The translations under genes were made by a program, and so were the position numbers. A stretch of DNA of 26,432 nucleotides from Patescibacteria group bacterium (lineage in GTDB: Bacteria > Patescibacteriota > Patescibacteriia > Magasanikbacterales > GWA2-37-8), in the NCBI GenBank assembly GCA_038064745.1, contig JBBTSL010000045.1:1291-27722 (forward strand), written 5' to 3'. How positions within the stretch are numbered: position 1 is the stretch's first letter; each line of letters opens with the position of its first letter. The notes below the pieces were generated by a model that saw only the letters and a list, made by a program, of their open reading frames with translations, made no database searches and was not told the DNA's origin. Positions 78 to 26,432 of this stretch are shown one piece after another.

Positions 78-152
78 TCCGGGGTAGCTCAGCGGCAGAG
101 CGAAGGACTGTTAATCCTCAGGTCGCGGGTTCGATCCCCGCCCCCGGAGCCA
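78..152 (+). tRNA. tRNA-Asn (anticodon GTT)
   Basis: Acceptor TCCGGGG/CCCCGGA, D arm GCTC-AGCGGCA-GAGC, anticodon loop CT-GTT-AA (GTT at 110-112), T arm GCGGG-TTCGATC-CCCGC, discriminator G and encoded CCA (150-152). Confidence 0.97.
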
Positions 153-156
153 TGAG

Positions 157-186
157 TGAACGTGTGTGGCAACCCACATGCGTTCA
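157..186 (+). other. 13-bp stem-loop directly after the tRNA
   Basis: TGAACGTGTGTGG-CAAC-CCACATGCGTTCA: 13 pairs including 2 G.U pairs on the + strand. Confidence 0.5.
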
Positions 187-189
187 GTC

Positions 190-219
190 AAAAAACCACT
201 ACGAAAGTAGCGGTTTTTT
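190..219. terminator. bidirectional intrinsic terminator
   Basis: AAAAAACC-A-CTAC-GAAA-GTAG-C-GGTTTTTT. GNRA loop on +; the A/C mismatch becomes G.U on -; 6-nt U tract on both strands. Confidence 0.8.
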
Positions 220-484
220 GTTGCCTGCCTGGCTTTCCTGGTTCGGGAAAAAGTTCGATATCCAGTTGTTCGCTTACGACAGGGGTGGGATGAGGAACCA
301 GACGAAGGTTCTATTCTGAGGATATTCCCGAATGAAGTTAACGGTTCGATACCCGACCTAAGTATCGCGTATTCAAAATCGTGTATTTAGAGGTATTATT
401 TCTCTGTGGATCTTTCAAAATTATTATCGGCTCTGGTCGGGGTTTATCCCTGCGGTTGCGGGTGTCGGTGCAATTCCGACAGAA

Positions 485-682
485 ATGTTGATTACATGTC
501 AGGTATTGACCGTAATCGTAATCTCTATGATCAATAAAAAGATCGAAGTTCTTTGGAAGAAGATGCCTTTACTTCCACTCACAGCGTTCTCTATGGGTTA
601 CTTGTTGCGCGATTTATTCGTCAGCATTCTCCTAGGTGAACTCGCGACCAGATTTGATAATGGCGAGTTGGCAAAAATATGA
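485..682 (+). CDS. small hydrophobic hypothetical protein (start may be ATG at 527)
   Basis: Stop overlaps the next start as ATGA (679-682), suggesting translational coupling; short hydrophobic stretch. No family recognised. Confidence 0.35.
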   Translation: MLITCQVLTVIVISMINKKIEVLWKKMPLLPLTAFSMGYLLRDLFVSILLGELATRFDNGELAKI

Positions 683-2094
683 TTCTGGACGAAGAATTTT
701 CGGATAAATTTACTAAATTACTGCATGATTCAGGATATCGGAATAACCTTGAATCGTTCGTAAATCTTTTGCGTTGGACACGGGTGCCTTTTTTGAAGAG
801 AAATGGTTTGTTTATGGCGGTAATGCAGACGAATATGTTGCGTTATCTCGTCGCTTTTCAAAAAGAATTGAGGAGACTTGAAAAAGAAAGTAAGGCGACA
901 ACTGATGTAAAAGAAAAGTCAGAAGTGGAAAGAAAGATTCTGATTGAAAAACAATGGATTCGCACTCTCTACACAATTGCAGATGGAATAGCTTGGAGGG
1001 CTTACGGCTTCAACAGACCACTATTGCGTGTAATGTCTGAAAATAGTTCCCCCGGTGATATTTCCCAAATCGATTATGATTATGTTGCCTTGTTAAGAAG
1101 GGTCCTCGCGAATGCGCCACGATCCACCTTTCGTATCGCAAATGATCTAACGAGATTTTTACGTATCGCAGATTTTACCGTTTTTTATCCCGATGGCAGG
1201 GTGATTCTCTACGAGATCAAAGAAAAGGGTAAAAAGATTTTCGATGTTGGATCTATTTTGAATGAAATGAAATTGCACCGCGTTAAGCCAAACCCGCAAA
1301 AGTTTCGACATCTGGTAGCCCAAATGGCAGTTATAAACAATAAGATCGACGTACCCATCATTCAGGGCAACAAGATCACAAGTAGGTTAGAAGTTGAGAT
1401 ACTCGATCTTGATTTTCCAATTCACACTCATTTGAAAAAGTTGAAAGGACTAATTAAGAAGGCGGATAAAAATGTAATCGCTACGGAATTAGTTGAGGAT
1501 GGTTATTATATACAGGTACTCGCGCTCGATAGAATCAAGAAAGGTCATGATTCCGAAAGTACAAAGAGACAGATGGATGCTGCGCCAGAGTGGATAAAAG
1601 AATGTGGCGGATCTACTATTAAAATAGGCAGTTGGGACGCATTCCTCGAGGCTGGAACCGAATTCCCAAGAAACATTTTGCCATACTCCGTTCTTCCATT
1701 TTCTGCTAAAGATTGTGCCAGAATCATTTTGGGCTATGTTCGGATATCGGTATTTATTAAGGTTGAGTCCCTCAAGGAGAAGTTGATTGAGGAAGGATGG
1801 GACGTTGTGGTCAAAGACCCAACGGATGGATTCGCACATAATTCAAAACGATCTGGCGAACCCATGTTTAGTAAAAACCACGAAGACGTTTTATTTCAAC
1901 TTAAGCGCAGTGACGAAACAGGTACTTATAATACATCGGTACTTCTGACTCAGCTTCTAATTATGGGCAGCTCCTTTTATAGTTTCAGGTTTATTACAGA
2001 CGGTGCGATGGAAATGTTTAAAAGAGCAAAATTGGATCGTGCAACAAGAAGTATTTCCATCAACTATTTAGGCGAAAGAAAAGTTTTGCGCTAG
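679..2094 (+). CDS. hypothetical protein with a putative PD-(D/E)xK nuclease motif
   Basis: 471-aa ORF; NDLTRFLRIADFTVFYPDGRVILYEIK fits D-(x)n-E-x-K; N-terminal helical/coiled-coil stretch. Confidence 0.6.
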   Translation: MILDEEFSDKFTKLLHDSGYRNNLESFVNLLRWTRVPFLKRNGLFMAVMQTNMLRYLVAFQKELRRLEKESKATTDVKEKSEVERKILIEKQWIRTLYTIADGIAWRAYGFNRPLLRVMSENSSPGDISQIDYDYVALLRRVLANAPRSTFRIANDLTRFLRIADFTVFYPDGRVILYEIKEKGKKIFDVGSILNEMKLHRVKPNPQKFRHLVAQMAVINNKIDVPIIQGNKITSRLEVEILDLDFPIHTHLKKLKGLIKKADKNVIATELVEDGYYIQVLALDRIKKGHDSESTKRQMDAAPEWIKECGGSTIKIGSWDAFLEAGTEFPRNILPYSVLPFSAKDCARIILGYVRISVFIKVESLKEKLIEEGWDVVVKDPTDGFAHNSKRSGEPMFSKNHEDVLFQLKRSDETGTYNTSVLLTQLLIMGSSFYSFRFITDGAMEMFKRAKLDRATRSISINYLGERKVLR

Positions 2095-2108
2095 TCTATA
2101 CAGATTTT

Positions 2109-3242
2109 ATGGATCCAATTAAAACAATTGAAAATGAACTACGGAATTTGATTCACGATGTATTGTCGGATAAGTTTGGCGTTTCTTGGACTGATAATAT
2201 AGACGTTGGACTGACCAAAGAATGGACGGGGCGTGGGAATTTAGAAGAAAAGGCGAAAAGGGATAGATCGATTAGAGGAGACGTGGCTATCTACGACATG
2301 CCATTGGCGTACTCAGAATTCTCGCATCTAAAGATTATTCTTGAAAACCGCAAGAGTCTGTTCGAAGAAGTTTTCAAGGAATGGGAAAAGACGATGCAGT
2401 ATCTCTCTGTAGCGGAAAACTTTCGCAACGCGCTAGCACACAATAGAGACATTACCCCGACTCAACAGCAACTGCTGATTGGTATTGCTGGCGAGATTAT
2501 GGATGACATATATCTTTGGCGTATAGGAACCAGCACAGCGATAAAAGAAACCGTGATTGAATTCAGAGACTACATTCCCACCGAGAACAAGATGGAAAGC
2601 GAAGTTTTAGAAGCATCCAGAGTTTTTGTTGTTGATTTGAACAATCTGATCGTTGATGCCTTGAAAAAGAGCGGCTTTGACGATAAAAAGATAGTTGAGA
2701 AAAGAGAAGAATTCGTTTCTCAGATCACTGCACCGCAGATTTCGGTAGATACGCACACGTCACCTAAGGGTCAACCAAATTCTCAGCAAAACGGAATTAA
2801 GTGCAAAAGTTTCATCACCAGCATTCGCTATAAGCCAGCGTGCAAAGTGGATTTAAATTCGATCCTAACTTGCTTCGGTAGGCAATACTTTTCAATTCAG
2901 TTTGTACTTAACAAACCCATAAATGTCGATTCGTTGGTTCACTGGTCTGTAGAAAAAGCAGGTCTAAATCCTGGTAGCACCGTAAAAAGTGGAGACGCTT
3001 TCGATAACGTAGATTACAAACTTTTGAACGGAAAGTTGAGAATTAACGTTTCAAGATCGGGTAGCATTTGCCTTACCTGCGAAGATCCAGAAAGTTTTTG
3101 GTTCCCGCACAGAATTATTTCACCAGATCATCTATTTGGTTTTGTACTTGGGAACATTACGCCTAGAGCCATGATGCATCTCCATCAACGGTCATTTCTT
3201 TCTCTTGGCACGATTGGTGATAGTTCCTCCAGTGATCGTTAG
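2109..3242 (+). CDS. Swt1-like HEPN domain protein (putative RNase) with an unknown C-terminal domain
   Basis: IENELRNLI...LAYSEFSHLKIIL...LFEEVF pattern and the R-x4-H motif RNALAH (R106/H111). Confidence 0.75.
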   Translation: MDPIKTIENELRNLIHDVLSDKFGVSWTDNIDVGLTKEWTGRGNLEEKAKRDRSIRGDVAIYDMPLAYSEFSHLKIILENRKSLFEEVFKEWEKTMQYLSVAENFRNALAHNRDITPTQQQLLIGIAGEIMDDIYLWRIGTSTAIKETVIEFRDYIPTENKMESEVLEASRVFVVDLNNLIVDALKKSGFDDKKIVEKREEFVSQITAPQISVDTHTSPKGQPNSQQNGIKCKSFITSIRYKPACKVDLNSILTCFGRQYFSIQFVLNKPINVDSLVHWSVEKAGLNPGSTVKSGDAFDNVDYKLLNGKLRINVSRSGSICLTCEDPESFWFPHRIISPDHLFGFVLGNITPRAMMHLHQRSFLSLGTIGDSSSSDR

Positions 3243-4523
3243 CTCAGTTCGAACGTGTCCCAGTAAATCTCGTTTCTCTTCTTTTGTCCCTTCTTTAAGG
3301 ATGTATTTTGCACACGCGTACACGTCAATGTCTGGCATGATTTCGGCAACTTTTGCGGTTGCAATGTGACCACCGAGACTCGAGATCATCTTGGTTAGCC
3401 GATCTATTTCCTCTTTGATCCGCGCGACAGCGGCGAGTTCATCGATGTCGACGCTCTCAATGATTTTACAGAGCTGGCTCAATAGCTCTTCTTCTCGAAT
3501 GTACGGCTCTTTACAGCCGGTTACCCAGCGTTTCATGCATCCGTAGTAAACGTATCGCTTTATCGTGCCGTCCTTCAAACGCTTCTTCTTTTCTTCGGCA
3601 CTGATTCCTGAATTACAGTTTCCACATTTAAACATTCGAGTGAATCCGAATTCGTGTGTTCCTGGCGGTACCCGTGTTCCTGTTACTTTCATGACTTCCT
3701 GAACCCGCTCAAACACATCTTTTGTTATTAACGGCTCATGTTTTCCCTGATACCACTGACCGCTCTTCTGCGGAAATTCGTATCGACCCGTGTAGAAAGG
3801 GTTATCCATCATGCGATAGATCATACTTAGCGAAACATTTTTTCCTTTGCGCGTGGTGAAGTTTTTTTCTTTCATATAGTTCTGGATATTGCGTCCTGTC
3901 CATCCTTCGTATGCAACCTTATGGAAGATCTCTTTGACCATCGGTCCACGCTCGGGATCCATGAAAATTCGACGAGCACCCTTTTCTGCATATTTGTCAT
4001 GAAGATATCCGAGAGGTGACATATTCGGTCTGTATCCCATCTCCACCTTGGCTCGGAAGCCACGTTTTACGTTCACGCCTTTGTTGTCGTTCTCCAGCTT
4101 CGCCTGACCACACATCATCATGAGCATGAACTTATCGCTCGGAGAGTTTGTAAACTTCGGTCCATGTGTTCGGATCTCCTGAAGTAAACCCTGATCCATC
4201 AAGTCGACAACCGTACCAAGGTCACCCGCGTTACGACTTATACGATCTGCCGCCCACGTCAGGATTCCATCAAATTTCTTTTCCCTAATGTCCCCAATTA
4301 GACGATTAAACTCCGGGCGTGACCCGGAGTTTTTTGCGGAATGACTTTCGCGACGAACTTCTGCAACGTTTAATCCGTCCCTCACGGCTAGTTCCATGAC
4401 CTCTTTTACCTGGCTCTCAATCGACAAGGCTTGTCGTTCGTCATCCTCCGACGACTTTCTCGCGTAAAGGCAGTAGCGGATTGGTATAGCCTGCGTTTCG
4501 CTGTTCGTATTTTGTCCGTACAT
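3192..4523 (-). CDS. large serine recombinase 1 (short form)
   Basis: YCLYARKSS catalytic motif, DRISRN, recombinase domain (NPFYTG...GKHEPLIT) and Zn ribbon (CGNC...YYGC...C); 443 aa. Confidence 0.93.
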   Translation of the reverse strand: MYGQNTNSETQAIPIRYCLYARKSSEDDERQALSIESQVKEVMELAVRDGLNVAEVRRESHSAKNSGSRPEFNRLIGDIREKKFDGILTWAADRISRNAGDLGTVVDLMDQGLLQEIRTHGPKFTNSPSDKFMLMMMCGQAKLENDNKGVNVKRGFRAKVEMGYRPNMSPLGYLHDKYAEKGARRIFMDPERGPMVKEIFHKVAYEGWTGRNIQNYMKEKNFTTRKGKNVSLSMIYRMMDNPFYTGRYEFPQKSGQWYQGKHEPLITKDVFERVQEVMKVTGTRVPPGTHEFGFTRMFKCGNCNSGISAEEKKKRLKDGTIKRYVYYGCMKRWVTGCKEPYIREEELLSQLCKIIESVDIDELAAVARIKEEIDRLTKMISSLGGHIATAKVAEIMPDIDVYACAKYILKEGTKEEKRDLLGHVRTELTITGGTITNRAKRKK

Positions 4524-4729
4524 AGATTTGGTTACTCCTTATACCCACACACTACCGCGTCTGTCCCAGGTGCCTAGTCACGACCTGTAGGCAAGCTGTA
4601 GGTAACTAATTGATTAAAAAATGCCAATATTTGCTAGTATTAGGTCAGATTTTTCTACTTTTCCCGTCATGAACAAATATGTTGCTCCTGTGGTCATTTT
4701 CTGATAAAATTCGAGGGAATATTTTTCCT

Positions 4730-7700
4730 ATGGCAACTTCTCGAATCATCGATAATCATCGACAGTCACTTCTTGCTGCATTTCAAGAGCTTGCCTCTAA
4801 ACACGAAGAAATCTCGATCGCTACAGGTTACTGGGATCTTCCAGGAACAACTCTTGTTTTGCCTCAATTAAAGGACTGTAAAAAAATCCGTCTGCTTATT
4901 GGTCGCGAACCCCTCATTCCCCGATACCAATTAACAAAACCCGAAGTTGATTTTCCCGATAAGGATTTTTTCTCAGACTTGGAACGCCTTGAACACAATG
5001 AAACTTTTAGAGAGTCCGTCGTTAAAATCAAAGATTTAATCGCAAAAGGCGTACTTGAGGTTAGGGTTTATAAAGAAGAATTCTTCCATGCTAAATGTTA
5101 CATTTTTGGAAACTACGAATCCCCTGAAGCGGTGGGCATTATCGGCTCATCTAACTTCACGAAGAACGGCTTGACCGCCAATACTGAACTCAACGCGCTT
5201 GAGGCTGATCATCGCATCGTTACCTACACTCCACGCGTCGAAGATCAGGAGGTCGGTCACCTCGCATGGTTTGACCAATTTTGGAATAAGTCTCTTCCGT
5301 GGGATCAATCGTTTACCGCGATTATTTCCCAATCCTCACATGGCGACCTGCTCTTTACGCCATATGAGATGTACATCAAAACTTTGTACGAAATTTATAA
5401 AGAGGAGTTGGAAGACGAAGATTTGAAGGAGACCACTCGTGGAACATTTACCCTGCACGATTTTCAAATGAAAAACGTTCACGGTCTCATGCGTCGGTTA
5501 CGGAAGCATAAGGTTGCGATGCTAGCTGACTCGGTAGGATTAGGAAAAACTATCACGGCGATTGAGGTCATTAAGCAGTATAAAGAATCCGGCTTGCGTG
5601 TTGAGATTATTTGTCCAAAATCTCTTACCGTGCAATGGGAGAAACAAATGGCGACGCAAAGGATGGATGGCTCTACGCCTATCACGTTGCAAAATCCTCG
5701 CGAGATCGAGCGCAGACGGGGTCTTGATTCAATTGCTGCCGTTGGATTATTCGTGATTGATGAATCGCATAACCTTAAAAGTCGTTCCGGAAAACGCTTC
5801 AAGCAAATCACTGAGTGGATTGGCGCGAATCCAAAAGCTCATGTCTTGCTTTTGACTGCTACGCCAATTAACAACCAGCTCTCCGATATCACCAACCAAA
5901 TCCTGCTTGCGTGCCGAGGAGAAGCAGGTCTTCTACGCTTTGCCGTGCCAGATAAAAAGAACAAACAGACTACGATTGTTGATTTTAACCAAGCGGTAGA
6001 AAACCTCGCGCGTTCAATCAAACGAGATGCCGAGGAAGGAAAGTCCATTGACTTTGGATATGTTCGGGCAACCATGTCACCGATCCTTCGCGAGTTTGTT
6101 GTCCGTCGAACACGCCAAGGGATTGAGAAGGAATACGGCGGGCTTGTAGATGATCAGGGTATTCTTCAAACCTTTCCTAAGGTTGTTCCAGATGTTCGTG
6201 CGTATCGCTTCAATGAAGATGTTGCGAAAAGAATTCGAGACATTACCACCGATTCAGTCGATTTAGATTCACTGTATTCTTTGACGATCAGCGATATTGT
6301 TGATGCTACTCAGCGGCTCACACATCCGATCGATCAGATAAGTAACGCGCAATCCTCAGGTGAGACAGCGGATGTTACTTCTCCGATCGCCTTAATTTAT
6401 CGCACGATCCTTCTGCTCGGTTTCTTACCCTACCGTTGGCAGATGTATCGAACAAAATTTTACGGAAAGACCCGCGAAGAAATTAAGGAAATGAAGCTTT
6501 CGAGCGATGAACGAAACAGTTTGTTCTCTCAGCTTAGTATCTACGGCATTCTCCGTACGATGTTCCTGAAACGTCTCGAATCTTCGGTCAGCGCAATTCA
6601 TTCATCGCTGGAGACTTACGATCATAAGCTCGACATCTTTGAGCGTGGGTTACGCCAAGGGAAAATTATTACGTTAACGAACATTGATGAAATCGACGAA
6701 ATTCTTGGTGACGTTGAGGATAAAGATGCAGAGGAAGTTGAAGTGCCCGAGGAATTCATTCACGACACAATCGATGAAAATAATTATGTAGTCGATGCGC
6801 TCAAAGCCGACGTTGCAAAGGAACGTGAGTTGATTGATTTGCTTCGTCAGCAATTAGTCGTCCTTCACGAAGACGACTCAAAACTCAAGACTTTTGTTGG
6901 TCTTATTGAGGATCTTGCAAAGCGTCAACCAGCTGGTAAAAAAGTCCTTATTTTCTCCTATTACGCTGACACGATTAATTATCTGCGTGAAGTGGTTGAA
7001 ACGCGTACGAATGTCGTAAATAAAGATAACGCTGCATTTTTATCTTCAAATAATCGAGAGGATGCAGAATCGCTTGCGGGTCGATTCTCTCCTGTCTCCA
7101 AACAACACGCACTGAAAGATGGAGAAAAAGAATTATCCTATCTTTTTTCGACCGATATCTTGTCAGAAGGACAGAATCTTCAAGACTGCGGCATTCTTGT
7201 GAACTATGACCTTCACTGGAATCCGGTTCGTATGATCCAGAGAAACGGTCGAGTGAATCGTCTTGGAACATCATTCAAGGATGTCTACATCTATAACATT
7301 TCTCCAGAGGGACAATTGGACGAATATCTGCGTTTGGTCGCACGCCTTGAACGAAAGATCGATCTCATTCGTAACACTATCGGTACGGACACTCCAGTAC
7401 TCGATGAAAAAGCGAATCCGATAGAGTTCGTTGATTCTTGGAAGGACGTTTACAGTAGTGATGTCGAGGCGCGCATGGAAGCGATTCAAAATGCTGAGGG
7501 CGAAGCTGATTTCTTGCTCGCCGAAGATGAGTTTGTTTCAGACTTGAAGAGATTCCATCACGATCCAAATCACACACCAGAACAGAAGGCGGAAATATAC
7601 AATATTCCAAAAAGGAAATGGGGGGTGATGCCGACCGCGACATCTCGCGGTGATGAACGTCCCGATGTCCTCTCACTCGTTTCTCTTCAAAGCTCATCTG

Positions 7701-11333: not shown

Positions 11334-11359
11334 TTAATACGAAATAATATTCTTCTGAT

Positions 11360-17094: not shown

Positions 17095-17515
17095 AGGGAG
17101 CAATCTCACTTGAAATAACATTTCCGAGGGTCAGCGCACGACCAATCGCTTCTTCCTCTTCCTGCGTAAGCGGACGATCAACGCGAACGCTGGCGTTCAG
17201 GTCAACGCGCGTTCCGTAGGCGCGGTGGCGGTGCTTGAGCCAAAATGTAATCGCGCCGAGGTTGCCGTTTCGAATCATGCTGATCATGTGACTTTCCGCC
17301 ATGTCGCTCACGAGCGAATTGCCCTCGATGATCGCCTGTTGTGACTGCACATGGAAATCATCGTCGTCTTTGAGCCAGCGATAATATGTTGCGCGACCGA
17401 TACCGACCTTTTCGCATGCGACCTGCACAATAGGCGTACGTTTCAATTGTTCAACCATCTCGCCCTTCTTGTCGTCCTGGCGTTCGACGACCTTACTTGG
17501 TACTTGTTTTTTCAT
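17066..17515 (-). CDS. HTH protein, probable terminase small subunit
   Basis: IVQVACEKVGIGRATYYRW HTH followed by helices ending AITFWLKHR; overlaps the 5' end of terL. ATG 17515 (TTG 17527 possible). Confidence 0.75.
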   Translation of the reverse strand: MKKQVPSKVVERQDDKKGEMVEQLKRTPIVQVACEKVGIGRATYYRWLKDDDDFHVQSQQAIIEGNSLVSDMAESHMISMIRNGNLGAITFWLKHRHRAYGTRVDLNASVRVDRPLTQEEEEAIGRALTLGNVISSEIAPYENGNGESE

Positions 17516-18299: not shown

Positions 18300-19542
18300 A
18301 TCGTTGTATAATTACGTCACAGAAGACTGGATCTTTTTCAATTGTGAATGATTTGCGTTTCATCTGCTCGCACGCCGCCATGGTGCTACCCGATCCTCCG
18401 AAGAGGTCGAGGACGATGTCTCCGGGCTTCGTACAGCGTCTGAGCGGCTTCTCGTGAAGCGATACGGGTTTTTCGGTTGGATGCGTATAGTCTTGGCCGT
18501 TGAGTCGTTTGGCGAGCCAGATATCGAACAGATCCACAATGTCATCGATCGTACGGTTACCTGGCTGAATATCGCGGTTGAGAATCTCGGTAAGGTTCAT
18601 CACCTTGTCGCAGAGATACGGCGAACCGATGACCCCATACACGCAAGGCTCATACGCCTTGTTGAACGCGATCTGAGGTGTCATGTTGAAATTGTTCTTC
18701 ACCCATAGGCACACGCGCTTATTTTTTATTCCAGTTTCCTCGTAAAGGGATTGCAGAAGTCCGATGGAAAGTTGGTCTACCCACATAAAGAAGTGGGCAT
18801 CCGGTTTAGCCACCGCCTTCGCGTTTTCAATGCACGTTTTCAGGAACACGCGGTATTCCACTGGCGACTTATTGTCATCGACCTTGCCGCCATACTTACC
18901 TTTGGTCGAAATACCCTTGGAGTAGTCGAGCGAAATGTTGTAGGGAAAATCCGAGTAACACATGTCTACCTTGTGTTTGCCCATGATATGAGACACGGCT
19001 TTTGGGTCTGTGGAATCACCGCACAATAAAATGTGATCACCGAGCTGGAACATCTCCCCGAGTTTTGTCTTCGGCTTCTTGATCGCTGCCGCGGCTTTCT
19101 CCGAATCGAAGTCGTCTTCTTCGACGGAGAGCGTGTCATCCCATATGTGGCTGAGATCAGTTTCATCGAACCCTACCTCGATCAGCATCTCCATGTTGAA
19201 TTCCTTCAGGAGATCCCAATCCCATTCGCCAGTATTTCTGTTTAACCTGACGTTTAACTCCTTCTCTCTTTCAAGATCCGGAATGTTCACGTAAACGACT
19301 GGCACCTGCGTAAAGCCAAGAGACTTGGCGACGGATAATCTGAAGTTCCCCCCGATTACTATGTTCTTCCGCTTTGGCGCGGAGTTCACAATCAGGGGGT
19401 CAAGCATGCCAAATCGCTTGATACTGTCCTTGAGCTTTTCCTCCGCGATCACATCGTGTTTTCTCGGATTGAAGCTTGGCGTGGTAAGTGCATCTATTGC
19501 GACGTACTCCACTTTGATTGAACCTTTGGATATTTCTGACAT
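18259..19542 (-). CDS. ParB-like N-terminal domain fused to N4/N6 DNA methyltransferase
   Basis: NPRK...FGMLDPLIVN...IGGNFR...LNRNTGEWD (ParB-N); SDFPYN, HPTEKP, LDLFGGSGST (MTase). Confidence 0.92.
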   Translation of the reverse strand: MSEISKGSIKVEYVAIDALTTPSFNPRKHDVIAEEKLKDSIKRFGMLDPLIVNSAPKRKNIVIGGNFRLSVAKSLGFTQVPVVYVNIPDLEREKELNVRLNRNTGEWDWDLLKEFNMEMLIEVGFDETDLSHIWDDTLSVEEDDFDSEKAAAAIKKPKTKLGEMFQLGDHILLCGDSTDPKAVSHIMGKHKVDMCYSDFPYNISLDYSKGISTKGKYGGKVDDNKSPVEYRVFLKTCIENAKAVAKPDAHFFMWVDQLSIGLLQSLYEETGIKNKRVCLWVKNNFNMTPQIAFNKAYEPCVYGVIGSPYLCDKVMNLTEILNRDIQPGNRTIDDIVDLFDIWLAKRLNGQDYTHPTEKPVSLHEKPLRRCTKPGDIVLDLFGGSGSTMAACEQMKRKSFTIEKDPVFCDVIIQRYEKLTNQKAKRIN

Positions 19543-19572
19543 ATAACGAAACGTGAATAATAAGAGAATGAA

Positions 19573-19603
19573 AAAAATCCCAACCGATCAGGTTAGGATT
19601 TTT
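19573..19603 (-). terminator. intrinsic terminator upstream of the ParB-MTase operon
   Basis: On the - strand AAAAAUCCUAACC-UGAUC-GGUUGGGAUUUUUUU: fully paired with one U.G, followed by a 7-U tract. Confidence 0.65.
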
Positions 19604-19844
19604 ATATGGAACAAATGGGCATTAAGTTAAATACAAAAAAACTAAAACTGATAAGTTTTTATGTACTCGACCTAATGCCTATAACTTTGATAAGAGTAGG
19701 AGCTTTCCCTCGCACTTTGGCTACGTTCGTTTGTCTAACTGTTTATTTTATGTGGCGTTTCAGTGTTCTCCTTAGCAATAACGGTGTACCACCACAAACG
19801 TAGGAGTAATTGGATTTTTAAAGAACGCGTAACCGTACCGTGTC

Positions 19845-20063
19845 TTACTTGCCGAAACCGCGAATTGTGCCGAGCAAGTCTTCGACAGACGCATTCACGT
19901 CGTCAACGACCTTATCGACCGATTGTTCTTTCTTGAGTGCGATACTTTTCCCGCACCCAGGACAAACCAGTGACTTTTCCTCCCTCACGTCATTGAGAGA
20001 GAAAGAGATTGGTGCCTCGCATCCCGGGCATGCTGTTTTAATTTGCTCTTGCCCGATATCCAT
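19845..20063 (-). CDS. small Zn-ribbon protein (CPGC...CPGC)
   Basis: 72 aa, two CxxC pairs, C-terminal amphipathic helix; near-consensus promoter directly upstream. Confidence 0.75.
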   Translation of the reverse strand: MDIGQEQIKTACPGCEAPISFSLNDVREEKSLVCPGCGKSIALKKEQSVDKVVDDVNASVEDLLGTIRGFGK

Positions 20064-20090
20064 ACCGAATATTTAGTGAATTATGAGGAT

Positions 20091-20119
20091 ATTTTACCGA
20101 GGGCGTTTATGGCTGTCAA
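20091..20119 (-). promoter_or_regulatory. leftward sigma70 promoter
   Basis: On the - strand TTGACA (20119-20114), 17-nt spacer, TAAAAT (20096-20091). Confidence 0.75.
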
Positions 20120-20142
20120 GTCCGTCAAGTTTTGCACTTGAC
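20115..20142. promoter_or_regulatory. candidate repressor operator (GTCAAGT half-sites)
   Basis: GTCAAGT at 20115-21 and 20124-30; inverted ACTTGAC at 20136-42, forming a perfect IR with a 5-nt spacer; overlaps both -35 boxes. Confidence 0.55.
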
Positions 20143-20165
20143 TATTATGTACTATCCTGTACTAT
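20138..20165 (+). promoter_or_regulatory. rightward promoter for the repressor operon
   Basis: TTGACT (20138-43), 16-nt spacer, TACTAT (20160-65); ATG follows at 20177. Confidence 0.55.
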
Positions 20166-20176
20166 TATTTTCAAAT

Positions 20177-20827
20177 ATGCATGAAATCCAACAAAAAATC
20201 TTGGAGCTGGCAAAGAAATATGACCTTGGAAGCTTAAGTTTGCGGAAGATCGGCGAGCTTATTGGTCAACCCCATCCACAGCAGGTGAAGCATCACTTCG
20301 AGAAGCTTGTTTCGGCAGGTCTTCTGAAGGCAAGCTTTGACCGAAAGATCGTTAAAAAAGTTGATGTGACTAGGAAAACAGCGGATGGACTTCTGTTGAT
20401 CCCTATTTTTGGCAGTGCAAACGCTGGTCCAGCGACTATTTTTGCAGATGAAACCCTTCAGGGGTACCTGCATGTATCAAAGTCCCTTCTTCCCAAGACT
20501 CGCGGCAAAGTATTCGCGGTGCGCGTGAGCGGAAACTCAATGAATGACGCATCGCTTAACGGCAAAACGATCGACGACGGCGACTTCGCGATTGTCGATT
20601 CTGGTCAGACCGACCCGCCAAGCGGCAAGTACGTGCTGTCAGTCATTGGTGACGTTGCGAACATCAAACGTCTGGTTAAGGACGAGGAAAACGAGCAGAT
20701 TATCCTCGCCTCGGACTCGAAGGAAAAATCGTACTCGCCGATTTACATTCACGAGGACGAAAAAGAGACGTTCCGAATCAGTGGTGTGGTTGTGGAGGTG
20801 ATGAAAGATCCAAAATTAAAAAAGTAA
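20177..20827 (+). CDS. LexA/CI-like repressor (wHTH plus S24 peptidase)
   Basis: N-terminal wHTH, Ala-Gly cleavage site (FGSANAG), catalytic Ser (VSGNSM) and Lys (NIKRL). ATG 20177 preferred over 20132. Confidence 0.9.
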   Translation: MHEIQQKILELAKKYDLGSLSLRKIGELIGQPHPQQVKHHFEKLVSAGLLKASFDRKIVKKVDVTRKTADGLLLIPIFGSANAGPATIFADETLQGYLHVSKSLLPKTRGKVFAVRVSGNSMNDASLNGKTIDDGDFAIVDSGQTDPPSGKYVLSVIGDVANIKRLVKDEENEQIILASDSKEKSYSPIYIHEDEKETFRISGVVVEVMKDPKLKK

Positions 20828-20834
20828 AGTTCAT

Positions 20835-21896
20835 ATGGCTTACGAAATTGACTATCTCCCAGTGGGAGAAGGTGAAAGGGGCGGAGATGCGATCGCATTG
20901 CGTTTTGGAAACCTTGCGGGTTCGCGTGAAGAGCAGACCGTAATTGTGATTGATGGTGGGACTAAGGACTCTGGCACCGCCTTGGTTGAACACATCAAGC
21001 TCTATTACGGAGGAACAGACTTTGTTGACTTTGTAATCTCTACACATCCAGATGCAGATCATGCCTCAGGGCTGTGCGTAGTTTTGGAGCAGATGCGAGT
21101 CGGAACGCTTGTAATGCACAAGCCTTGGGAACATGCCGAAGATATCAAGAGTCTTTTTGTTAACGGCAGAATTACCGCTTCTGGTCTTGAAGATAAACTG
21201 GAAAAGTCGCTTCAGCACGCAAGCGATCTCGAATCGCTCGCCAAGGGGAAAAACATCACGGTAGTTGAACCGTTTCAAGGCGTTGCCGGAATGGACGGAG
21301 CGATTCATGTGCTGGGTCCATCAATGGAATACTATCAATCCTTGCTGCCGCATTTTCGTGGTACACCACAACCAAAAGATGCATTGGGTATTCTTGGAGC
21401 GATAAGAAAAGCAGCGGAAGATATCGTGAATAGTATCCGTGATAGCCTTGACATTGACCTGTTGAACAACGACGAAGATACGACTTCCGCCGAAAATAAT
21501 ACGAGTACTGTGATTCTCTTTAACCTGGACGGTCACAAGATGCTATTTACAGGAGATGCAGGAAAAACCGCCCTTCATAACGCATCCGATTATGCTGAGA
21601 CATCGGGAATCGCGTTAACCGACCTGCATTTTCTTGACGTTCCTCATCATGGAAGCAAGAGAAATCTTAGCAGCAGCCTCCTAAAGAGGATCAAAGCGCA
21701 GGTCGCTTACGTTTCTGTTCCAAAAGAATCAACTAAGCATCCTGCAAAGAAAGTCACCAACGCGCTTAAAAAAATCGGCGCGTCAGTCTATACGACAAAG
21801 GGAAAAACTATTCGATACAGTAGTGCCGATGCTCCGGCGCGGGCAGGATGGAGCGCAATTCAGGAAGAACCGTTCCACGAATACGTCGAGGAATAG
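20835..21896 (+). CDS. ComEC/Rec2-like metallo-beta-lactamase-fold hydrolase
   Basis: GGDAI, VIDGG, STHPDADHASG, LFTGDAG, DVPHHGS; no membrane domain. Confidence 0.88.
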   Translation: MAYEIDYLPVGEGERGGDAIALRFGNLAGSREEQTVIVIDGGTKDSGTALVEHIKLYYGGTDFVDFVISTHPDADHASGLCVVLEQMRVGTLVMHKPWEHAEDIKSLFVNGRITASGLEDKLEKSLQHASDLESLAKGKNITVVEPFQGVAGMDGAIHVLGPSMEYYQSLLPHFRGTPQPKDALGILGAIRKAAEDIVNSIRDSLDIDLLNNDEDTTSAENNTSTVILFNLDGHKMLFTGDAGKTALHNASDYAETSGIALTDLHFLDVPHHGSKRNLSSSLLKRIKAQVAYVSVPKESTKHPAKKVTNALKKIGASVYTTKGKTIRYSSADAPARAGWSAIQEEPFHEYVEE

Positions 21897-21898
21897 AT

Positions 21899-22591
21899 AT
21901 GAAACCAGATGCATATACACTCGTCGCGCGAATATTTCCAGGCATCCTCGGTGTCATTCCGTTTCTTGTCCTATATTTTCGCGCTTTGCGACCATTAATC
22001 GGAGATCTTGTTGATAGTATCTTCGGACTTCAATTCGTTTCTGACGTAACGATCCCCCTCGTTCTTCTGTACCTATTCGTGCAGTTGGCAAAGTACTTAT
22101 CAAAGGAGCTGTACCAGAAGAAAATGTTTAACAACGGTCTGAACATGCCGACGACAAATTTCTTGTTGCATCTCAACGACTTTTTTACAAGGGATTTCAC
22201 GAAAAAAGTACATGAAAAAATCTTGTCGGACTTCAACATTCAAATTCCAAGTATTGAAGCCGAACAATCTGACTCCGTTCATTCCCGAAAGACTATTAGC
22301 GAGGCGGTATCCTGCATCTGCGGAAAAATGAAAAAAGGGCATCTCATCGGTCAGCACAATACAGAATATGGTTTCTGGAGGAATCTCGCCGGAGGATCAA
22401 TTATTTCGGTGATTGCATCGGTAGTGAGCGTTATCGTTTTTGCGTGGCTCTACCCTGATGGGTCAGCTTTGCGTACGTCGATCGCTCTTGGAATCATATA
22501 CTCTATCCATCTGATTTTCGCCAAAAAAATGATAGTTCATTCTGGAGAAGAGTACGCAAAAATACTCATCCGCGAATATGTTGTGAGCTAG
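21899..22591 (+). CDS. 4-TM membrane protein of unknown function
   Basis: Two pairs of hydrophobic helices flanking a soluble domain ending HNTEYGFWRNL; starts 2 nt after the MBL stop. Confidence 0.8.
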   Translation: MKPDAYTLVARIFPGILGVIPFLVLYFRALRPLIGDLVDSIFGLQFVSDVTIPLVLLYLFVQLAKYLSKELYQKKMFNNGLNMPTTNFLLHLNDFFTRDFTKKVHEKILSDFNIQIPSIEAEQSDSVHSRKTISEAVSCICGKMKKGHLIGQHNTEYGFWRNLAGGSIISVIASVVSVIVFAWLYPDGSALRTSIALGIIYSIHLIFAKKMIVHSGEEYAKILIREYVVS

Positions 22592-22612
22592 TTTTGGTTT
22601 TTCCTTATCCCT

Positions 22613-22939
22613 ATGCCAACAAAACAATCAACCGTAGACTACATTCTTGATCAGTTAGCTGATCTTCCTGGCATCGAAGCCAAGAAAATGTTTGGCGAGT
22701 ACGCCTTGTACACGTCCGGTAAAGTTGTTGGGCTGATCTGCGACGATACGCTCTTCATTAAGATTACGGATGCTGGAAAGCAGTTTGTTGGCGATGACTA
22801 CAAGGAGGGTTCTGCGTACCCAGGGGCAAAGGCATCAATGGAAATACACGGAGACTTGTTGGAAAACCGCGAATGGCTTTCGAAACTTGTCGCCATCACT
22901 GAAAAAAATCTACCCACGCCAAAACCAAAGAAGAAATAG
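22613..22939 (+). CDS. TfoX/Sxy N-terminal domain protein
   Basis: VDYILDQL...AKKMFGEYALY..GKVVGLICDDTLFIK. Confidence 0.85.
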   Translation: MPTKQSTVDYILDQLADLPGIEAKKMFGEYALYTSGKVVGLICDDTLFIKITDAGKQFVGDDYKEGSAYPGAKASMEIHGDLLENREWLSKLVAITEKNLPTPKPKKK

Positions 22940-22946
22940 AATCGGT

Positions 22947-24266
22947 ATGCAAGAAAAAATGCAAAAGCCAATTGCATACTGTCTTTACGCGCGTAAAAGC
23001 AGCGAGTCGGAGGAGCGTCAATCTCTTTCCATTGATTCCCAAATCAAAGAAATGCAGAAGCTCGCCGAGCGCGAAGGCTTAAACATCAAGGAGATAAAAC
23101 GTGAGAGTCGTTCCGCAAAGTCGCGGGGAGACAGACCGATTTTCAACGAGCTGATCAACGACGTTCGTTTTGGTAAATTTGGTGGTATTCTCACATGGGC
23201 AACTGACCGCCTCAGTCGTAATGCTGGAGATTTAGGCGCACTGGTCGATCTGATGGATGCGGGAAAACTTATTGATATTCGCACGTTCAACCAGCGTTTC
23301 ACGAATTCGCCCAACGAGAAGTTTTTGCTCATGATTCTTGGCAGTCAGGCGAAACTAGAGAACGACAACCGAAGCGTAAACGTAAAGCGCGGTATTCGTT
23401 CTCGCGTCCAAGCTGGATTATGGCCTGGTCCTGCGCCTATTGGCTATCTCAACCAAAACCGTACGGATAAAAGATGCGAAGTGATCGTCGATATCGAGCG
23501 AGCGCCTACCATCAAACAAATGTTTGAGAAGGTGGCTAATAATCGCATGAGTACGAGGAATATTTACCAGTGGTTGAAGGACATCGGATTTCGTTCACAT
23601 CACGGAAAAGTTTTCGCCCACAGTAGCGTACAAAGAACGCTGAATAATCCATTTTACTACGGGCGGTTCGAGCATCCTAAGAAAAGCGGTAAGTGGCATA
23701 CGGGCAAACACGAGCCGATCATCACCAAGGCGTTGTTTCAAAAAGTTCAGGATCGACTTCATCGTATTCAGACCAAGCGAAGCGTGAAGGAGTTTTCTTT
23801 TGTCCGTCTTTTTACCTGTGGTCTTTGCGGATCTGGCATCGTTGCTGAGGACAAGGTGAAGAAGCTAAGTGACGGAACGATAGCTCATTACATTTATTAC
23901 GGGTGCAGTCGTGGTCGGGATCGATTCTGCAAGAATAGCTATATTCGCGAGGAGGAGCTGATCAAGGAGCTGGTTGGAATCATCGACACGGCAGAAATTG
24001 ATGAACTTGGCATTCGTTATAAATTCGACGAAGAGGTCACGCGGTACGGCAAGTTTTTAAATCACGTTCTAGGCAAACCCACAGATCTCAAAGCGGAAGA
24101 GATCGAGCTAAATATTCGGGCATACGCCAAGTACGTCTTAATGGACGGTTCCAAAACCGAAAAGCGCGAACTCCTCGGACATTTGCGGAGCCGCCTCGTT
24201 TATACGCACAAGAAGTTTCGTCTTTTACCTTCCGAGCAACAGGAAGAGGAATCAGTCGTCCAGTAA
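22947..24266 (+). CDS. large serine recombinase 2 (short form, paralogue of recombinase 1)
   Basis: YCLYARKSS, DRLSRN, NPFYYG...GKHEPIIT, CGLC...YYGC...C. ATG 22947 (or 22959); the 22770 start overlaps tfoX. Confidence 0.93.
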   Translation: MQEKMQKPIAYCLYARKSSESEERQSLSIDSQIKEMQKLAEREGLNIKEIKRESRSAKSRGDRPIFNELINDVRFGKFGGILTWATDRLSRNAGDLGALVDLMDAGKLIDIRTFNQRFTNSPNEKFLLMILGSQAKLENDNRSVNVKRGIRSRVQAGLWPGPAPIGYLNQNRTDKRCEVIVDIERAPTIKQMFEKVANNRMSTRNIYQWLKDIGFRSHHGKVFAHSSVQRTLNNPFYYGRFEHPKKSGKWHTGKHEPIITKALFQKVQDRLHRIQTKRSVKEFSFVRLFTCGLCGSGIVAEDKVKKLSDGTIAHYIYYGCSRGRDRFCKNSYIREEELIKELVGIIDTAEIDELGIRYKFDEEVTRYGKFLNHVLGKPTDLKAEEIELNIRAYAKYVLMDGSKTEKRELLGHLRSRLVYTHKKFRLLPSEQQEEESVVQ

Positions 24267-24737
24267 TAACTCAGAATCCAGGCTCAGATTCTCTTCCTTC
24301 AGAAATACATAGAAGTACGGTTTACCATTAGCATTTCTAACAATCCTTGCTTTCAGCTCGCCACTTCGTGCTTTCGCCTGAACCGTCGTGTGATGCCAGC
24401 CGTATTTTGATGTGAGCTGGCTTACTGAGAACCACGCTTTGTCGTCCAAGACTGCCGATCCGGGGACAACGTCTTCATCGACCGCCTTTCGGCAGAGCGG
24501 ACACTTGAGACCGTACTGGTCATACCAGCCCTCGTTATCCCTCATGGATCGACGGCACAAATTGCAGTCGTAAATCCCGTAGGTTATCGGGAAACCGTCG
24601 GGTTCAGTTTTGAGCCGCTCTTTCCATCCCTCAAGCCGCATGTGAATGCTCAGGAGTAGCTCGCCGAATTTCACAAATTGCACGATTTCCTCATCCGTAA
24701 AACTTCGGTTTTGTTCGTGTTCCGTTCGTGTTTCCAT
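24252..24737 (-). CDS. Zn-finger plus excisionase/MerR-like wHTH protein
   Basis: CNLC...CPLC, then FSVSQLTSKYGWHHTTVQAKARSGELKAR. ATG 24737 preferred because the 24920 extension crosses the repeat/att region. Confidence 0.65.
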   Translation of the reverse strand: METRTEHEQNRSFTDEEIVQFVKFGELLLSIHMRLEGWKERLKTEPDGFPITYGIYDCNLCRRSMRDNEGWYDQYGLKCPLCRKAVDEDVVPGSAVLDDKAWFSVSQLTSKYGWHHTTVQAKARSGELKARIVRNANGKPYFYVFLKEENLSLDSELLLDD

Positions 24738-24773
24738 AGTTGTTAAATTCCCTTTATATTCGCTATTTTTGTG

Positions 24774-24859
24774 TGAGACAGACCCCCTCTGTACTGTCTC
24801 AGATGTCTCATTTTGATGAGACCCGGGTGCTTGTTTGACCCCCTCAAAAGACCCCTCAA
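24774..24859. repeat. cluster of short inverted and direct repeats beside the att-like site
   Basis: TGAGACAG/CTGTCTCA IR (24774-81/24794-801); GTCTCAT/ATGAGAC IR (24805-11/24816-22); GACCCC(C)TC at 24781, 24837 and 24850. Confidence 0.6.
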
Positions 24860-26432
24860 TCATTGATGGAAAGTGAGTTCGAGATCCGCCCGCCGAGCCA
24901 TGTAGAACCGACCATTGCAAAACGGTCGGTTTTACATTTAGTAGCAGGCGTTTTCGTCGGTTCTAACCTTCTATACTCCATTTCAAGTGCAGGATAGCTT
25001 TCGATGATTGGTTTGAACCAAAAATGTGGCTGAATGCTGAGTTTTCCGTTCAAAATTGTCGGGTTCGAACCTAAAGCCATCATGATCTCTTTTTTCTTGT
25101 GAACATCACCCTTTAGGAATGCGCTGTGAGCGTAGGTGGCAAAATCAAATACTTGCTCGGTTAGTTCTAGCCAATTCTCAGCCCGAGAATCCAACCGGGC
25201 TATTTCAGAGGCTATTTTCTGCATCTCCCCCTTGAGCCTGTCGCGTTCCTTGATATAGCCATCATCGTCGATAAGGTCACGAACACGCATTCCGGTAAGG
25301 TTGTCGATCTGCGCCTGCGTTGAGGTATGAGTTTTTATTAGGGACTCATAGACTGACGATCGGGTAGTGACTTCCTTTTCATGTTCCTTTCCCAAACATT
25401 CCAGCGCCCAAGATCGGAATTCCGGCATGATAGTGAGCTTCGAAAGCTCATGCTCAACTTGCTCGGTTAAAACGTCTTCCGTAATACAAGTACGTTGAGA
25501 GCATGAAATGTCCTTTCGTTTCCGTGTGCAATGATAGTAGGTGTAGCTCTTGAGCGTCTGAGTGCTCTTAATATGCTTGGTCTTCGTTTCAGCGGTGTAC
25601 ATGCATCCGCACTCCCCACATCGGATAAAACCGGTAAAAGCGAACTCTCGCGTTTGTGGGCGTGCTTTACCGTGTTTACCTAGTAAGCGCTGAACATGAT
25701 CGAATTCTTCTTGAGTGATCATGGGAGTATGACTCCCGTTATGCCACTCTTTTTGATACGAAATCTTTCCAGTATAAAAACGATTATTGAAAATTCTATA
25801 TATGCCGCTTTCTGAAAGCGGCTTGCCACCAATATGGCGCATCTTTCGAGTTCTAAAGCCCCATTCAATATTCGCAATATCTGCAATCTTTGAGGCTGAA
25901 TATGTTCCGGTGAGCATTAAGTCCCACATCTTTCGAACCAATGGGAATCGTTCCGGATCATTAATGATTATTCCGCGGCCTTCATCGTCCTTAGCATTGA
26001 GATAGCCTAAAGAAGCCATGTTTGGCATCCAACCTTTTTCTACACGTCCACGCATGCCGCGCATTGTGTTCTTGCGAAGGTCGAGAATAAATTGATTCGC
26101 CACGCCACCTTCCATGCTTAAAATGAGCGCGTTGTCATCAGGCTTATATTCTCGATCAATTGTCTGAATGGAATGAATAACGCCTTGCTGAAGCATCCAC
26201 TGGAGCGTTCCGCTATCAACTGGATTGCGCGAAAGGCGATTAATCTGCCAACAGAGAATTCCGTGTGCATCACCCTTTTCAATACGCTCAAGCATCTCTA
26301 AAAACAGTGGACGATTGTTTGGTTGCTTTGCAGACTTCGCCTCTTCGTAAATCTCAACTATTTCCAACTTCATCTGCGCGGCAAGAATCTTGAGGCGATC
26401 AATTTGATCTTCAATGCTTTGCACCTGTCTTT
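24856..26432 (-). CDS. large serine integrase 3 (long form), 5' end outside the window
   Basis: Frame open to the window edge (..RQVQSIEDQ; catalytic YxRxS not visible); NRLSRN, NRFYTG, CGECG...YYHC...C, long coiled-coil; more than 522 aa. Confidence 0.9.
   Translation of the reverse strand, partial: RQVQSIEDQIDRLKILAAQMKLEIVEIYEEAKSAKQPNNRPLFLEMLERIEKGDAHGILCWQINRLSRNPVDSGTLQWMLQQGVIHSIQTIDREYKPDDNALILSMEGGVANQFILDLRKNTMRGMRGRVEKGWMPNMASLGYLNAKDDEGRGIIINDPERFPLVRKMWDLMLTGTYSASKIADIANIEWGFRTRKMRHIGGKPLSESGIYRIFNNRFYTGKISYQKEWHNGSHTPMITQEEFDHVQRLLGKHGKARPQTREFAFTGFIRCGECGCMYTAETKTKHIKSTQTLKSYTYYHCTRKRKDISCSQRTCITEDVLTEQVEHELSKLTIMPEFRSWALECLGKEHEKEVTTRSSVYESLIKTHTSTQAQIDNLTGMRVRDLIDDDGYIKERDRLKGEMQKIASEIARLDSRAENWLELTEQVFDFATYAHSAFLKGDVHKKKEIMMALGSNPTILNGKLSIQPHFWFKPIIESYPALEMEYRRLEPTKTPATKCKTDRFAMVGSTWLGGRISNSLSIND
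24877..24902 (+). repeat. degenerate tRNA 3'-end copy (att-like)
   Basis: GTTCGAGATCCGCCCGCCGAGCCATG versus tRNA 129-154 GTTCGATCCCCGCCCCCGGAGCCATG: 21/26 identical, ungapped, same orientation. Confidence 0.65.

What the first reader, a model, noticed from the sequence alone, without database searches (positions are those of the whole stretch)
129..24902. Degenerate att copy of the tRNA-Asn 3' end 24.7 kb downstream
129-154 and 24877-24902 match at 21/26 positions without gaps, including GTTCGA and GAGCCATG; the match extends 2 nt past the CCA. This is the expected footprint of integration at a tRNA 3' end. tRNA targeting is more usual for tyrosine integrases, and serine integrases need little homology, so GAGCCATG could contain the crossover.
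Basis: partly seen in the sequence, partly recalled or inferred. Interest (0 to 1): 0.65.

Follow-up and report, generated by a model that had tools for sequence, protein, structure and literature searches.

The report
tRNA-Asn att junction of serine-recombinase island
The degenerate copy of the tRNA-Asn 3' end is a genuine integration scar: a 24.7-kb defence island carrying only serine recombinases was inserted between the tRNA and an older serine-recombinase element, an enzyme family that a 2014 database paper said was not known to target tRNA genes.

Summary
Positions 129-154 and 24877-24902 match at 21/26 without gaps. About 4e-5 such matches are expected by chance, and the next best is 17/26.

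Two groundwater metagenome contigs carry an orthologue of the recombinase at the window's right end (LSR-3, 95-96% aa). In both, an intact tRNA-Asn joins exactly the sequence that follows 24894. The next 100 nt are 100% identical, and identity collapses to the left.

The right flank is not chromosome. It is an older element, so this is a tandem array at tRNA-Asn.

The window has no tyrosine integrase, only three large serine recombinases. LSR-3 homologues sit convergent on a tRNA 3' end in 28 of 29 genome loci of the same class. With three metagenome loci added, their reading frames run into the antisense tRNA in 30 of 31.

A complete genome (G012) has a syntenic island at tRNA-Asn with homologous ends. 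Its left end recurs behind GGAGCCATG in a third genome.

The crossover is not pinned down. GAGCCATG is favoured, and the T-loop is not excluded. I saw no excision products, and only assembled contigs could be laid.

The parts
78..152 (+). Intact tRNA-Asn(GTT), the integration target
   Evidence: ARAGORN. All stems pair perfectly (read).
129..154 (+). Left copy of the repeat (junction J1), running from the T-loop to 2 nt past CCA
147..154 (+). Core GAGCCATG at J1. It is the only stretch shared by J1, J3 and the empty site
155..195 (+). Left arm (P') of island A
   Evidence: 35/39 identical (counted by eye from the printed sequences) to the sequence behind GGAGCCATG at G012 site 2. It is also found behind GGAGCCATG in an Uhrbacteria MAG, L126. 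It resembles the arm next to LSR-1/2-type genes at tRNA-Trp in L078 and L079.
155..24894 (.). Island A, the 24.7-kb insertion (defence and phage-satellite-like cargo)
   Evidence: It is absent between tRNA-Asn and the LSR-3 orthologue in L082 and L086. A syntenic island lies at tRNA-Asn in G012.
3166..3173 (+). Third GAGCCATG, 19 nt past the LSR-1 stop codon; significance unclear
   Evidence: It is not conserved next to the LSR-1 homologue in G012.
3192..4523 (-). LSR-1, a large serine recombinase convergent with the tRNA; best candidate integrase of island A
   Evidence: Pfam Resolvase, Recombinase and Zn_ribbon_recom domains. 51% identical to LSR-2.
4679..13807 (+). Defence cargo: HKD+Snf2 helicase, Type IIG restriction-modification enzyme, Cas4-like/DUF2779 nuclease, PD-T7-5-like protein
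   Evidence: Pfam and PADLOC.
15643..17527 (-). TerL and TerS terminase genes, with no head or tail genes found nearby
   Evidence: PHROGs.
22770..24266 (+). LSR-2, a large serine recombinase near the right end of island A
   Evidence: Pfam. 73% identical homologue at the same place in G012.
24740..24876 (+). Right arm (P) region of island A, with TGAGAC/GTCTCA repeats
   Evidence: It aligns with the region left of the site-3 remnant in G012.
24877..24902 (+). Degenerate tRNA-Asn 3' copy (junction J3), the finding itself
24895..24902 (+). Core GAGCCATG at J3. 100% identity to the empty-site contigs starts here
24856..26430 (-). LSR-3, a large serine recombinase cut by the contig end. Its last 15 or so codons are read from the antisense of J3
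   Evidence: Pfam, translation and the full-length form P0002 with the same tail.

Best explanation
Positions 24877-24902 are the right-hand recombination junction (J3) of a 24.7-kb integrative island, A (155-24894). Island A inserted site-specifically at the 3' end of tRNA-Asn. The tRNA was already occupied by an older element whose serine recombinase gene (LSR-3) abuts the tRNA end, so the locus is a tandem array: tRNA-Asn | island A | tRNA-like remnant | LSR-3 element. Shown: the repeat itself, the empty-site arrangement in close relatives, the conserved ends of island A in other genomes, and the absence of a tyrosine integrase. Inferred: a large serine recombinase did the integration, most likely LSR-1, whose family has the same kind of left arm next to tRNAs. 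Also inferred, at about 55%, is that strand exchange lies in or beside the 8-bp GAGCCATG. In that case the intact tRNA is wholly host DNA, and the 18 nt left of the core at J3 are the island's own arm. That arm would mimic the T-loop-to-acceptor part of the tRNA because the same enzyme must bind both.
For: The repeat is 21/26 with 4e-5 expected. L082 and L086 carry the LSR-3 orthologue (95-96% aa) with an intact tRNA-Asn in place of the remnant. The window is 100/100 identical to L086 from 24895 onward, then 95, 91 and 87 per 100 nt, but 12/20 just to the left and unrelated beyond that. The flank upstream of that tRNA is orthologous to C45:1163-1280. G012, a complete genome of another family, has the same order at tRNA-Asn: LSR-1 homologue, TerL/TerS, methylases, LSR-2 homologue. 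Its left arm behind GGAGCCATG is near-identical, and its right arm ends in a tRNA-like remnant. The same left arm follows GGAGCCATG in L126, where the sequence to its left is hardly tRNA-like. Soil and sludge contigs hold 155 to about 12300 at 98-99% next to a tRNA-Asn, but with other sequence upstream of position 75. There is no PF00589 hit in the contig and none inside the elements of G082, G012 or G034. LSR-3 homologues abut a convergent tRNA in 28/29 genome loci, and in 30/31 loci their frame ends inside the tRNA. In G082 the adjacent tRNA-Asn is the genome's only one, and an 8.3-kb element there is flanked by a perfect 24-nt repeat of the same extent. The full-length LSR-3, P0002, has the same tail and is recorded for a cluster on 3 contigs, so J3 may also stand in other assemblies.
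Against: No excision product, attP circle or restored attB was seen. Only assembled contigs could be laid, and J1 and J3 are too far apart to be laid together. LSR-1 lies 3 kb from the tRNA, and LSR-2 faces the wrong way for the canonical arrangement. Only about 8 of 29 LSR-1/2-family loci have a tRNA or the arm motif nearby. Against a GAGCCATG crossover: in G082 and G237 the remnant is identical to each host's own tRNA end although the two hosts differ in the acceptor stem. The G012 site-3 remnant also shares two host-specific bases with its host tRNA. That pattern is what a displaced host fragment from a T-loop crossover would give. The window is part of a MAG scaffold. Its first 77 nt differ from the orthologous host flank, which lies beyond a 10-N gap.
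Confidence: 0.8

Rival explanations
1. This is the same integration event with the classical geometry. The crossover lies in the T-loop (TTCGA), the island carries its own copy of the tRNA 3' part and restores the gene with it, and the remnant is the displaced 3' end of the earlier tRNA.
For: In several independent loci the repeat block starts sharply within the T-loop: G082, G034, G330 and G012 site 2. A weaker and unconvincing candidate in L082 shows the same. Remnants co-vary with the host tRNA in G082 versus G237 and at G012 site 3. The T-arm is a natural dyad, which would suit a dimeric recombinase (inference).
Against: The pre-insertion tRNA would then have had two acceptor-stem mismatches, C3.C70 and G5.G68 (read). 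There are 8 differences in 20 nt directly beside 100 nt of perfect identity to L086. In L126 the island-type left arm is preceded by only about 10 nt of tRNA-like sequence. No tRNA in 400 class genomes lies within 3 mismatches of the remnant's 23-mer.
Confidence: 0.3
2. A tyrosine integrase made the insertion, either acting in trans or since lost. The serine recombinases are passengers.
For: tRNA 3' ends are the textbook target of tyrosine integrases (PMC4383910). Long perfect repeats, such as the 24 nt in G082, are more typical of them.
Against: The MAG has one PF00589 gene above the family cut-off, on another contig. The five relatives checked have one or two each. In G082, G012 and G034 none lies in the elements; in G330 one lies about 750 nt upstream of the tRNA, outside the element. 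The elements of G291 were not delimited. The recombinase-tRNA geometry is conserved in 28/29 loci.
Confidence: 0.07
3. The tRNA-like stretch belongs only to the LSR-3 gene and its own att arm. Its likeness to the tRNA 24.7 kb away does not mark an insertion.
For: The stretch lies inside the LSR-3 reading frame.
Against: In orthologous loci an intact tRNA, not a fragment, occupies this place. The DNA left of it is homologous to the right end of the G012 island.
Confidence: 0.05
4. It is an assembly or binning artefact: contigs wrongly joined at a tRNA-like repeat.
For: The genome is a MAG of 179 contigs. There is a 10-N scaffold join just before the window, and a duplicated tRNA 5' half.
Against: Logan contigs of the source run cover 77-7616 with no differences. 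The LSR-3 tail that spans J3 is recorded in a cluster on 3 contigs. G012 shows the same architecture in a single-contig genome.
Confidence: 0.04

Closest known systems
tDNA genomic islands (the Islander signature: an intact tRNA gene, an island with an integrase, and a displaced 3' tRNA fragment)
   Same: There is an intact tRNA at one end and a direct partial copy of its 3' end at the other. Recombinase genes lie inside, relatives have an empty site, and several elements sit in tandem at one tRNA.
   Different: The integrases here are large serine recombinases, not tyrosine recombinases. [quoted passage not shown] The fragment is degenerate and may be an element-borne mimic.
Phage-type large serine integrases (phiC31, Bxb1, A118/LI; from general knowledge)
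   Same: They share the Resolvase, Recombinase and zinc-ribbon domain set and an N-terminal YxRxS motif. The gene lies at the edge of the element next to the att site.
   Different: Known members mostly integrate into protein-coding genes and share only short common cores (PMC5357655, PMC8092301, PMC10654092). Here the target is a tRNA 3' end, the repeat reaches 24 nt in G082, and the LSR-3-type reading frame runs into the antisense tRNA.
Accretion of integrative elements at one att site, as with streptococcal IMEs/ICEs (PMC5357655) and SCC arrays at rlmH made by CcrAB serine recombinases (the latter from general knowledge)
   Same: Successive elements stack at one site, each junction keeps an att copy, and the recombinases of neighbouring elements are only distantly related.
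   Different: The target here is a tRNA gene in ultrasmall Patescibacteria-size genomes. The newcomer sits between the tRNA and the older element.

Membership tests
tDNA-integrated genomic island | An intact tRNA gene at one boundary | tested here: met
   tRNA-Asn at 78-152.
tDNA-integrated genomic island | A direct partial copy of the tRNA 3' end at the other boundary | tested here: met
   21/26 match at 24877-24902 with 4e-5 expected.
tDNA-integrated genomic island | An empty site in a relative that joins the tRNA to the far flank | tested here: met
   L082 and L086. The far flank is itself another element.
tDNA-integrated genomic island | A tyrosine-family integrase on board (the classical definition) | tested here: not met
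   No PF00589 match in the contig.
Large serine recombinase (serine integrase) | Resolvase, Recombinase and Zn_ribbon_recom domains | tested here: met
   All three LSRs have them.
Large serine recombinase (serine integrase) | A catalytic serine in the N-terminal YxRxS motif | tested here: met
   YARKSS is seen in LSR-1 and LSR-2 and in full-length LSR-3, P0002. This rests on motif inspection only.
Large serine recombinase (serine integrase) | Catalyses attP x attB exchange at a 2-bp central dinucleotide | not testable with these tools
   This needs a recombination assay or sequenced excision products.
Large serine recombinase (serine integrase) | Short att sites with little attP/attB identity | tested here: inconclusive
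   The shared core is 8 bp in the window, but G082 has a perfect 24-nt repeat.

The most novel reading that the evidence does not exclude
Large clades of serine recombinases in Patescibacteria-size genomes are dedicated tRNA-3'-end integrases. In the LSR-3 clade the last dozen or so codons are read from the antisense strand of the target tRNA, with CCA read as a Trp codon. Integration and excision would then rewrite the enzyme's own C-terminus. Successive elements stack at one tRNA by using the resident element's arm as half of the new target. This would overturn the rule that only tyrosine integrases target tRNA genes.
Probability: 0.6. Interest if true: 0.75.

Novelty: new variant of a known kind. 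Interest (0 to 1): 0.62.

Why it matters
Genomic-island finders such as Islander were built on the premise that only tyrosine integrases target tRNA genes. If serine integrases do so routinely in Patescibacteria, a whole class of islands in these genomes may be missed or mis-delimited. This one carries several defence systems, and its left 12 kb occurs at 98-99% identity in soil and sludge metagenome contigs. tRNA-directed serine integrases would also be attractive genome-engineering tools, because their target is conserved and they usually need no host factors. The overlap of the integrase reading frame with the att site offers a testable way to couple enzyme form to integration state.

Tried and rejected
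I therefore could not fetch the 121-kb contig that holds full-length LSR-3, nor the closest homologues.

An Rfam scan of 24700-25000 gave only a sub-threshold RydC match.

No tRNA within 3 mismatches of the remnant's 23-mer was found in 400 genomes of the class.

A viral-contig scan with ORF 679-2094 found nothing.

Read laying could not hold J1 and J3 in one stretch and served only contigs. No excision joint could be seen, and variants at 75-503 in the soil contig were not listed.

I considered a circular contig and rejected it. The minus-strand frame leaving the window's left end does not continue into the LSR-3 N-terminus MKFFLYARKSS.

A candidate far-end remnant of the LSR-3 element in L082 was unconvincing, because it lies inside an ORF.

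GAGCCATG at 3166 might be a third junction, but it is not conserved in G012 and has no tRNA-like flank.

Attempts to read a dyad for the att site (GGTTC ... GAAC) gave no consistent centre.
Full report
OBSERVATION. ARAGORN finds one tRNA in the window, tRNA-Asn(GTT) at 78-152. Positions 129-154 and 24877-24902 agree at 21 of 26 positions without gaps. The mismatches fall at block positions 7-9, 16 and 18. With the window's base composition, 3.9e-5 such sites are expected per strand, and the next best site scores 17/26. The 8-mer GAGCCATG occurs three times, all on the + strand, at 147, 3166 and 24895, against 0.48 expected.

SETTING. The window is G000:C45:1291-27722. G000 is a 0.94-Mb genome in 179 contigs, which is the size of a Patescibacteria genome. 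The window's right end is the contig end. A 10-N scaffold gap lies just before the window's start. The piece before the gap has 60% G+C and ends in the same 38-nt tRNA-Asn 5' half.

The window encodes three large serine recombinases, each with Resolvase, Recombinase and Zn_ribbon_recom domains:
- LSR-1 at 3192-4523 (-).
- LSR-2 at 22770-24266 (+), 51% identical to LSR-1.
- LSR-3 at 24856-26430 (-), 34% identical to LSR-2 and cut by the contig end.

The remnant lies inside the last 15 or so codons of LSR-3.

Between the repeats lie these genes:
- an HKD+Snf2 helicase;
- a Type IIG restriction-modification enzyme;
- a Cas4-like/DUF2779 nuclease;
- a PD-T7-5-like protein;
- proteins matching the PDC-M34B and PDC-M48B models;
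- TerS and TerL, with no virion genes found;
- two DNA methylases;
- an S24 repressor.

No Phage_integrase (PF00589) match lies in the contig.

EMPTY SITE. A metagenome scan with full-length LSR-3 (P0002) returned L082, from a 284-kb groundwater contig (95% aa), and L086 (96% aa over the C-terminus). In both, an intact tRNA-Asn overlaps the 3' end of the recombinase gene. Anchored on GAGCCATG, the window is identical to L086 at 100 of the first 100 nt from 24895. Identity in the next three 100-nt blocks is 95, 91 and 87. The 20 nt to the left agree at only 12 positions, and nothing matches further left.

The 120 nt at the end of the 60%-G+C scaffold piece, comprising the flank plus the tRNA 5' half, are 78% identical to the flank upstream of that tRNA in L082 and L086. 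That piece is therefore the true host flank.

There is one refinement. What lies right of the remnant is another integrative element rather than chromosome, so 155-24894 (island A) was inserted between the tRNA and an older LSR-3 element.

THE RECOMBINASE FAMILIES AND tRNAs. LSR-3 homologues (40-58% aa) occur in 52 of the 400 other sampled genomes of the class. In 28 of the 29 loci fetched, a convergent tRNA lies at the 3' end of the gene. The tRNAs are Asn, His, Met, Trp, Gln, Gly, Leu and Glu. With three metagenome loci added, 30 of 31 reading frames end 9-126 nt inside or beyond the tRNA on its antisense strand. At tRNA-Asn the stop is always 39 nt in; in the window it is 42 nt.

A tRNA at such a spot by chance would be expected in roughly 1% of cases. 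That estimate is my own and assumes about 45 tRNAs per Mb.

In the complete genome G082 this tRNA-Asn is the only one, so it is a target and not cargo. An 8.3-kb element there is flanked by a perfect 24-nt repeat running from the T-loop to one base past CCA. That is the same extent as the window's block.

The five relatives checked have only one or two tyrosine recombinases each. In G082, G012 and G034 none lies in the elements. In G330 one lies about 750 nt upstream of the tRNA, outside the element. The elements of G291 were not delimited.

LSR-1/2 homologues are even more common, occurring in 109 of the 400 other genomes. Only about 8 of 29 loci show a convergent tRNA or the family's arm motif within 420 nt.

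ISLAND A IS A RECURRING UNIT. G012 is a single-contig genome of another family. At its tRNA-Asn it has the same gene order: LSR-1 homologue (65-70% aa), TerL/TerS, methylases and LSR-2 homologue (73% aa).

The G012 island begins behind a junction that reads GGAGCCATG, followed by 39 nt that I count as 35/39 identical to window 155-193. It ends in a TGAGAC-repeat region homologous to window 24740-24876, followed by a tRNA-like remnant. G012 also has smaller elements on either side, so it too is an array.

The same left arm follows GGAGCCATG in an Uhrbacteria MAG, L126.

Window 1-3400 is near-identical in runs from at least seven studies covering groundwater, soil, sludge, aquifer and wastewater. 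Contigs of a soil run and a sludge run cover 155 to about 12300 at 98-99% next to a tRNA-Asn. They diverge upstream of position 75, and 12.7-20 kb is not covered there at 90% identity or more. The left boundary therefore behaves as a mobile-element end, and the cargo modules are exchangeable.

WHICH ENZYME, AND WHERE IS THE EXCHANGE? The left arm of island A resembles the arm found next to LSR-1/2-type genes at tRNA-Trp in L078 and L079. LSR-1 is convergent with the tRNA, as in those loci, though 3 kb away. I infer that LSR-1 is the integrase. LSR-2's role is open.

Adjacent identical bases between J1 and J3 allow three crossover zones: the T-loop TTCGA, CCGCCC in the T-stem and acceptor, and GAGCCATG.

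In favour of GAGCCATG:
- The homology break against the empty site is sharp.
- It is the only model in which the pre-insertion tRNA is intact.
- The island-type arm in L126 is preceded by only about 10 tRNA-like bases.
- No tRNA in 400 genomes resembles the remnant.

In favour of the T-loop:
- The repeat starts sharply there in several loci.
- In G082 and G237 the remnant is identical to each host's own tRNA end even though the two acceptor stems differ.

I put GAGCCATG at about 55%, the T-loop at about 30%, and leave the rest open.

COMPARISON WITH WHAT IS KNOWN. The layout is the classical tDNA-island signature. [quoted passage not shown] Surveys of streptococcal IMEs and of mycobacterial prophages likewise place serine integrases in protein-coding or intergenic sites and tyrosine integrases at tRNAs (PMC5357655, PMC8092301, PMC10654092).

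In the held library I found no paper describing tRNA-targeting serine integrases in Patescibacteria. The Mageeney 2020 TIGER paper was not held, so later reports cannot be excluded. Tandem accretion at a single att site is known for streptococcal elements (PMC5357655).

CAVEATS. This is a MAG. The window's first 77 nt are an unexplained second upstream context for the tRNA. Only contigs could be laid, not reads. No excision product was seen.

VERDICT. As an att scar it is ordinary. What lifts it is that every candidate integrase is a serine recombinase, from families that sit at tRNA 3' ends across this bacterial class.

Noticed in passing
window 24856-24920 and loci L011-L039, L082, L084, L086: LSR-3-family reading frames run through a terminator-like hairpin into the antisense of the adjacent tRNA in 30 of 31 loci. 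The CCA end is read as a Trp codon. The stop falls in the anticodon loop at tRNA-Asn loci.
   Followed up: partly
G000:C45:1-1290 and window 1-77: The scaffold piece before the 10-N gap has 60% G+C, ends in an identical 38-nt tRNA-Asn 5' half, and is orthologous to the host flank in L082 and L086. Window 1-77 is a different upstream context with no match elsewhere. There may be a second tRNA copy or a further element in the gap.
   Followed up: partly
window 3166-3173: A third GAGCCATG lies 19 nt past the LSR-1 stop, inside the 3' end of ORF 2109-3242. It has no tRNA-like flank and is not conserved in G012.
   Followed up: partly
window 241-360: Two further T-loop-like GTTCGAT motifs (253 and 344) lie within 220 nt of the tRNA. 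They could be older junction debris.
   Followed up: no
window 155-12300: This part of the island (two unknown ORFs, LSR-1, HKD+Snf2 helicase, Type IIG enzyme, Cas4-like nuclease) is 98-99% identical in soil and activated-sludge contigs. The 12.7-20 kb part is not covered there at 90% or more.
   Followed up: partly
L083 (metagenome contig SXGU01243170.1): An LSR-3 homologue (75% aa) sits next to a tRNA-Asn 3' half that starts in the anticodon loop. Another kind of element with an anticodon-loop crossover appears to have displaced the 5' half.
   Followed up: no
L126 (Uhrbacteria MAG) 1-2300, and L128 (G237) 349-560: These loci hold arrays of att-type junctions with no recombinase gene left. 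L126 has an LSR-3-type arm and an island-A-type arm 2.2 kb apart. G237 has a tRNA-Asn, then a 50-nt arm relic, then a perfect 23-nt tRNA 3' copy.
   Followed up: partly
G000 contigs C90 and C101: The bin holds two more tRNA-Asn(GTT) genes, 88% and 78% identical to the window's. That is unusual for a genome of this size and may reflect strain mixture or mis-binning.
   Followed up: no
C45:1163-1242 and L082/L086 upstream of tRNA-Asn: A conserved stretch of about 80 nt (TTCGCGAGGCGTAC...GGTGA.CGAAT) lies directly upstream of tRNA-Asn in distinct genomes. It could be a promoter or a small structured RNA.
   Followed up: no
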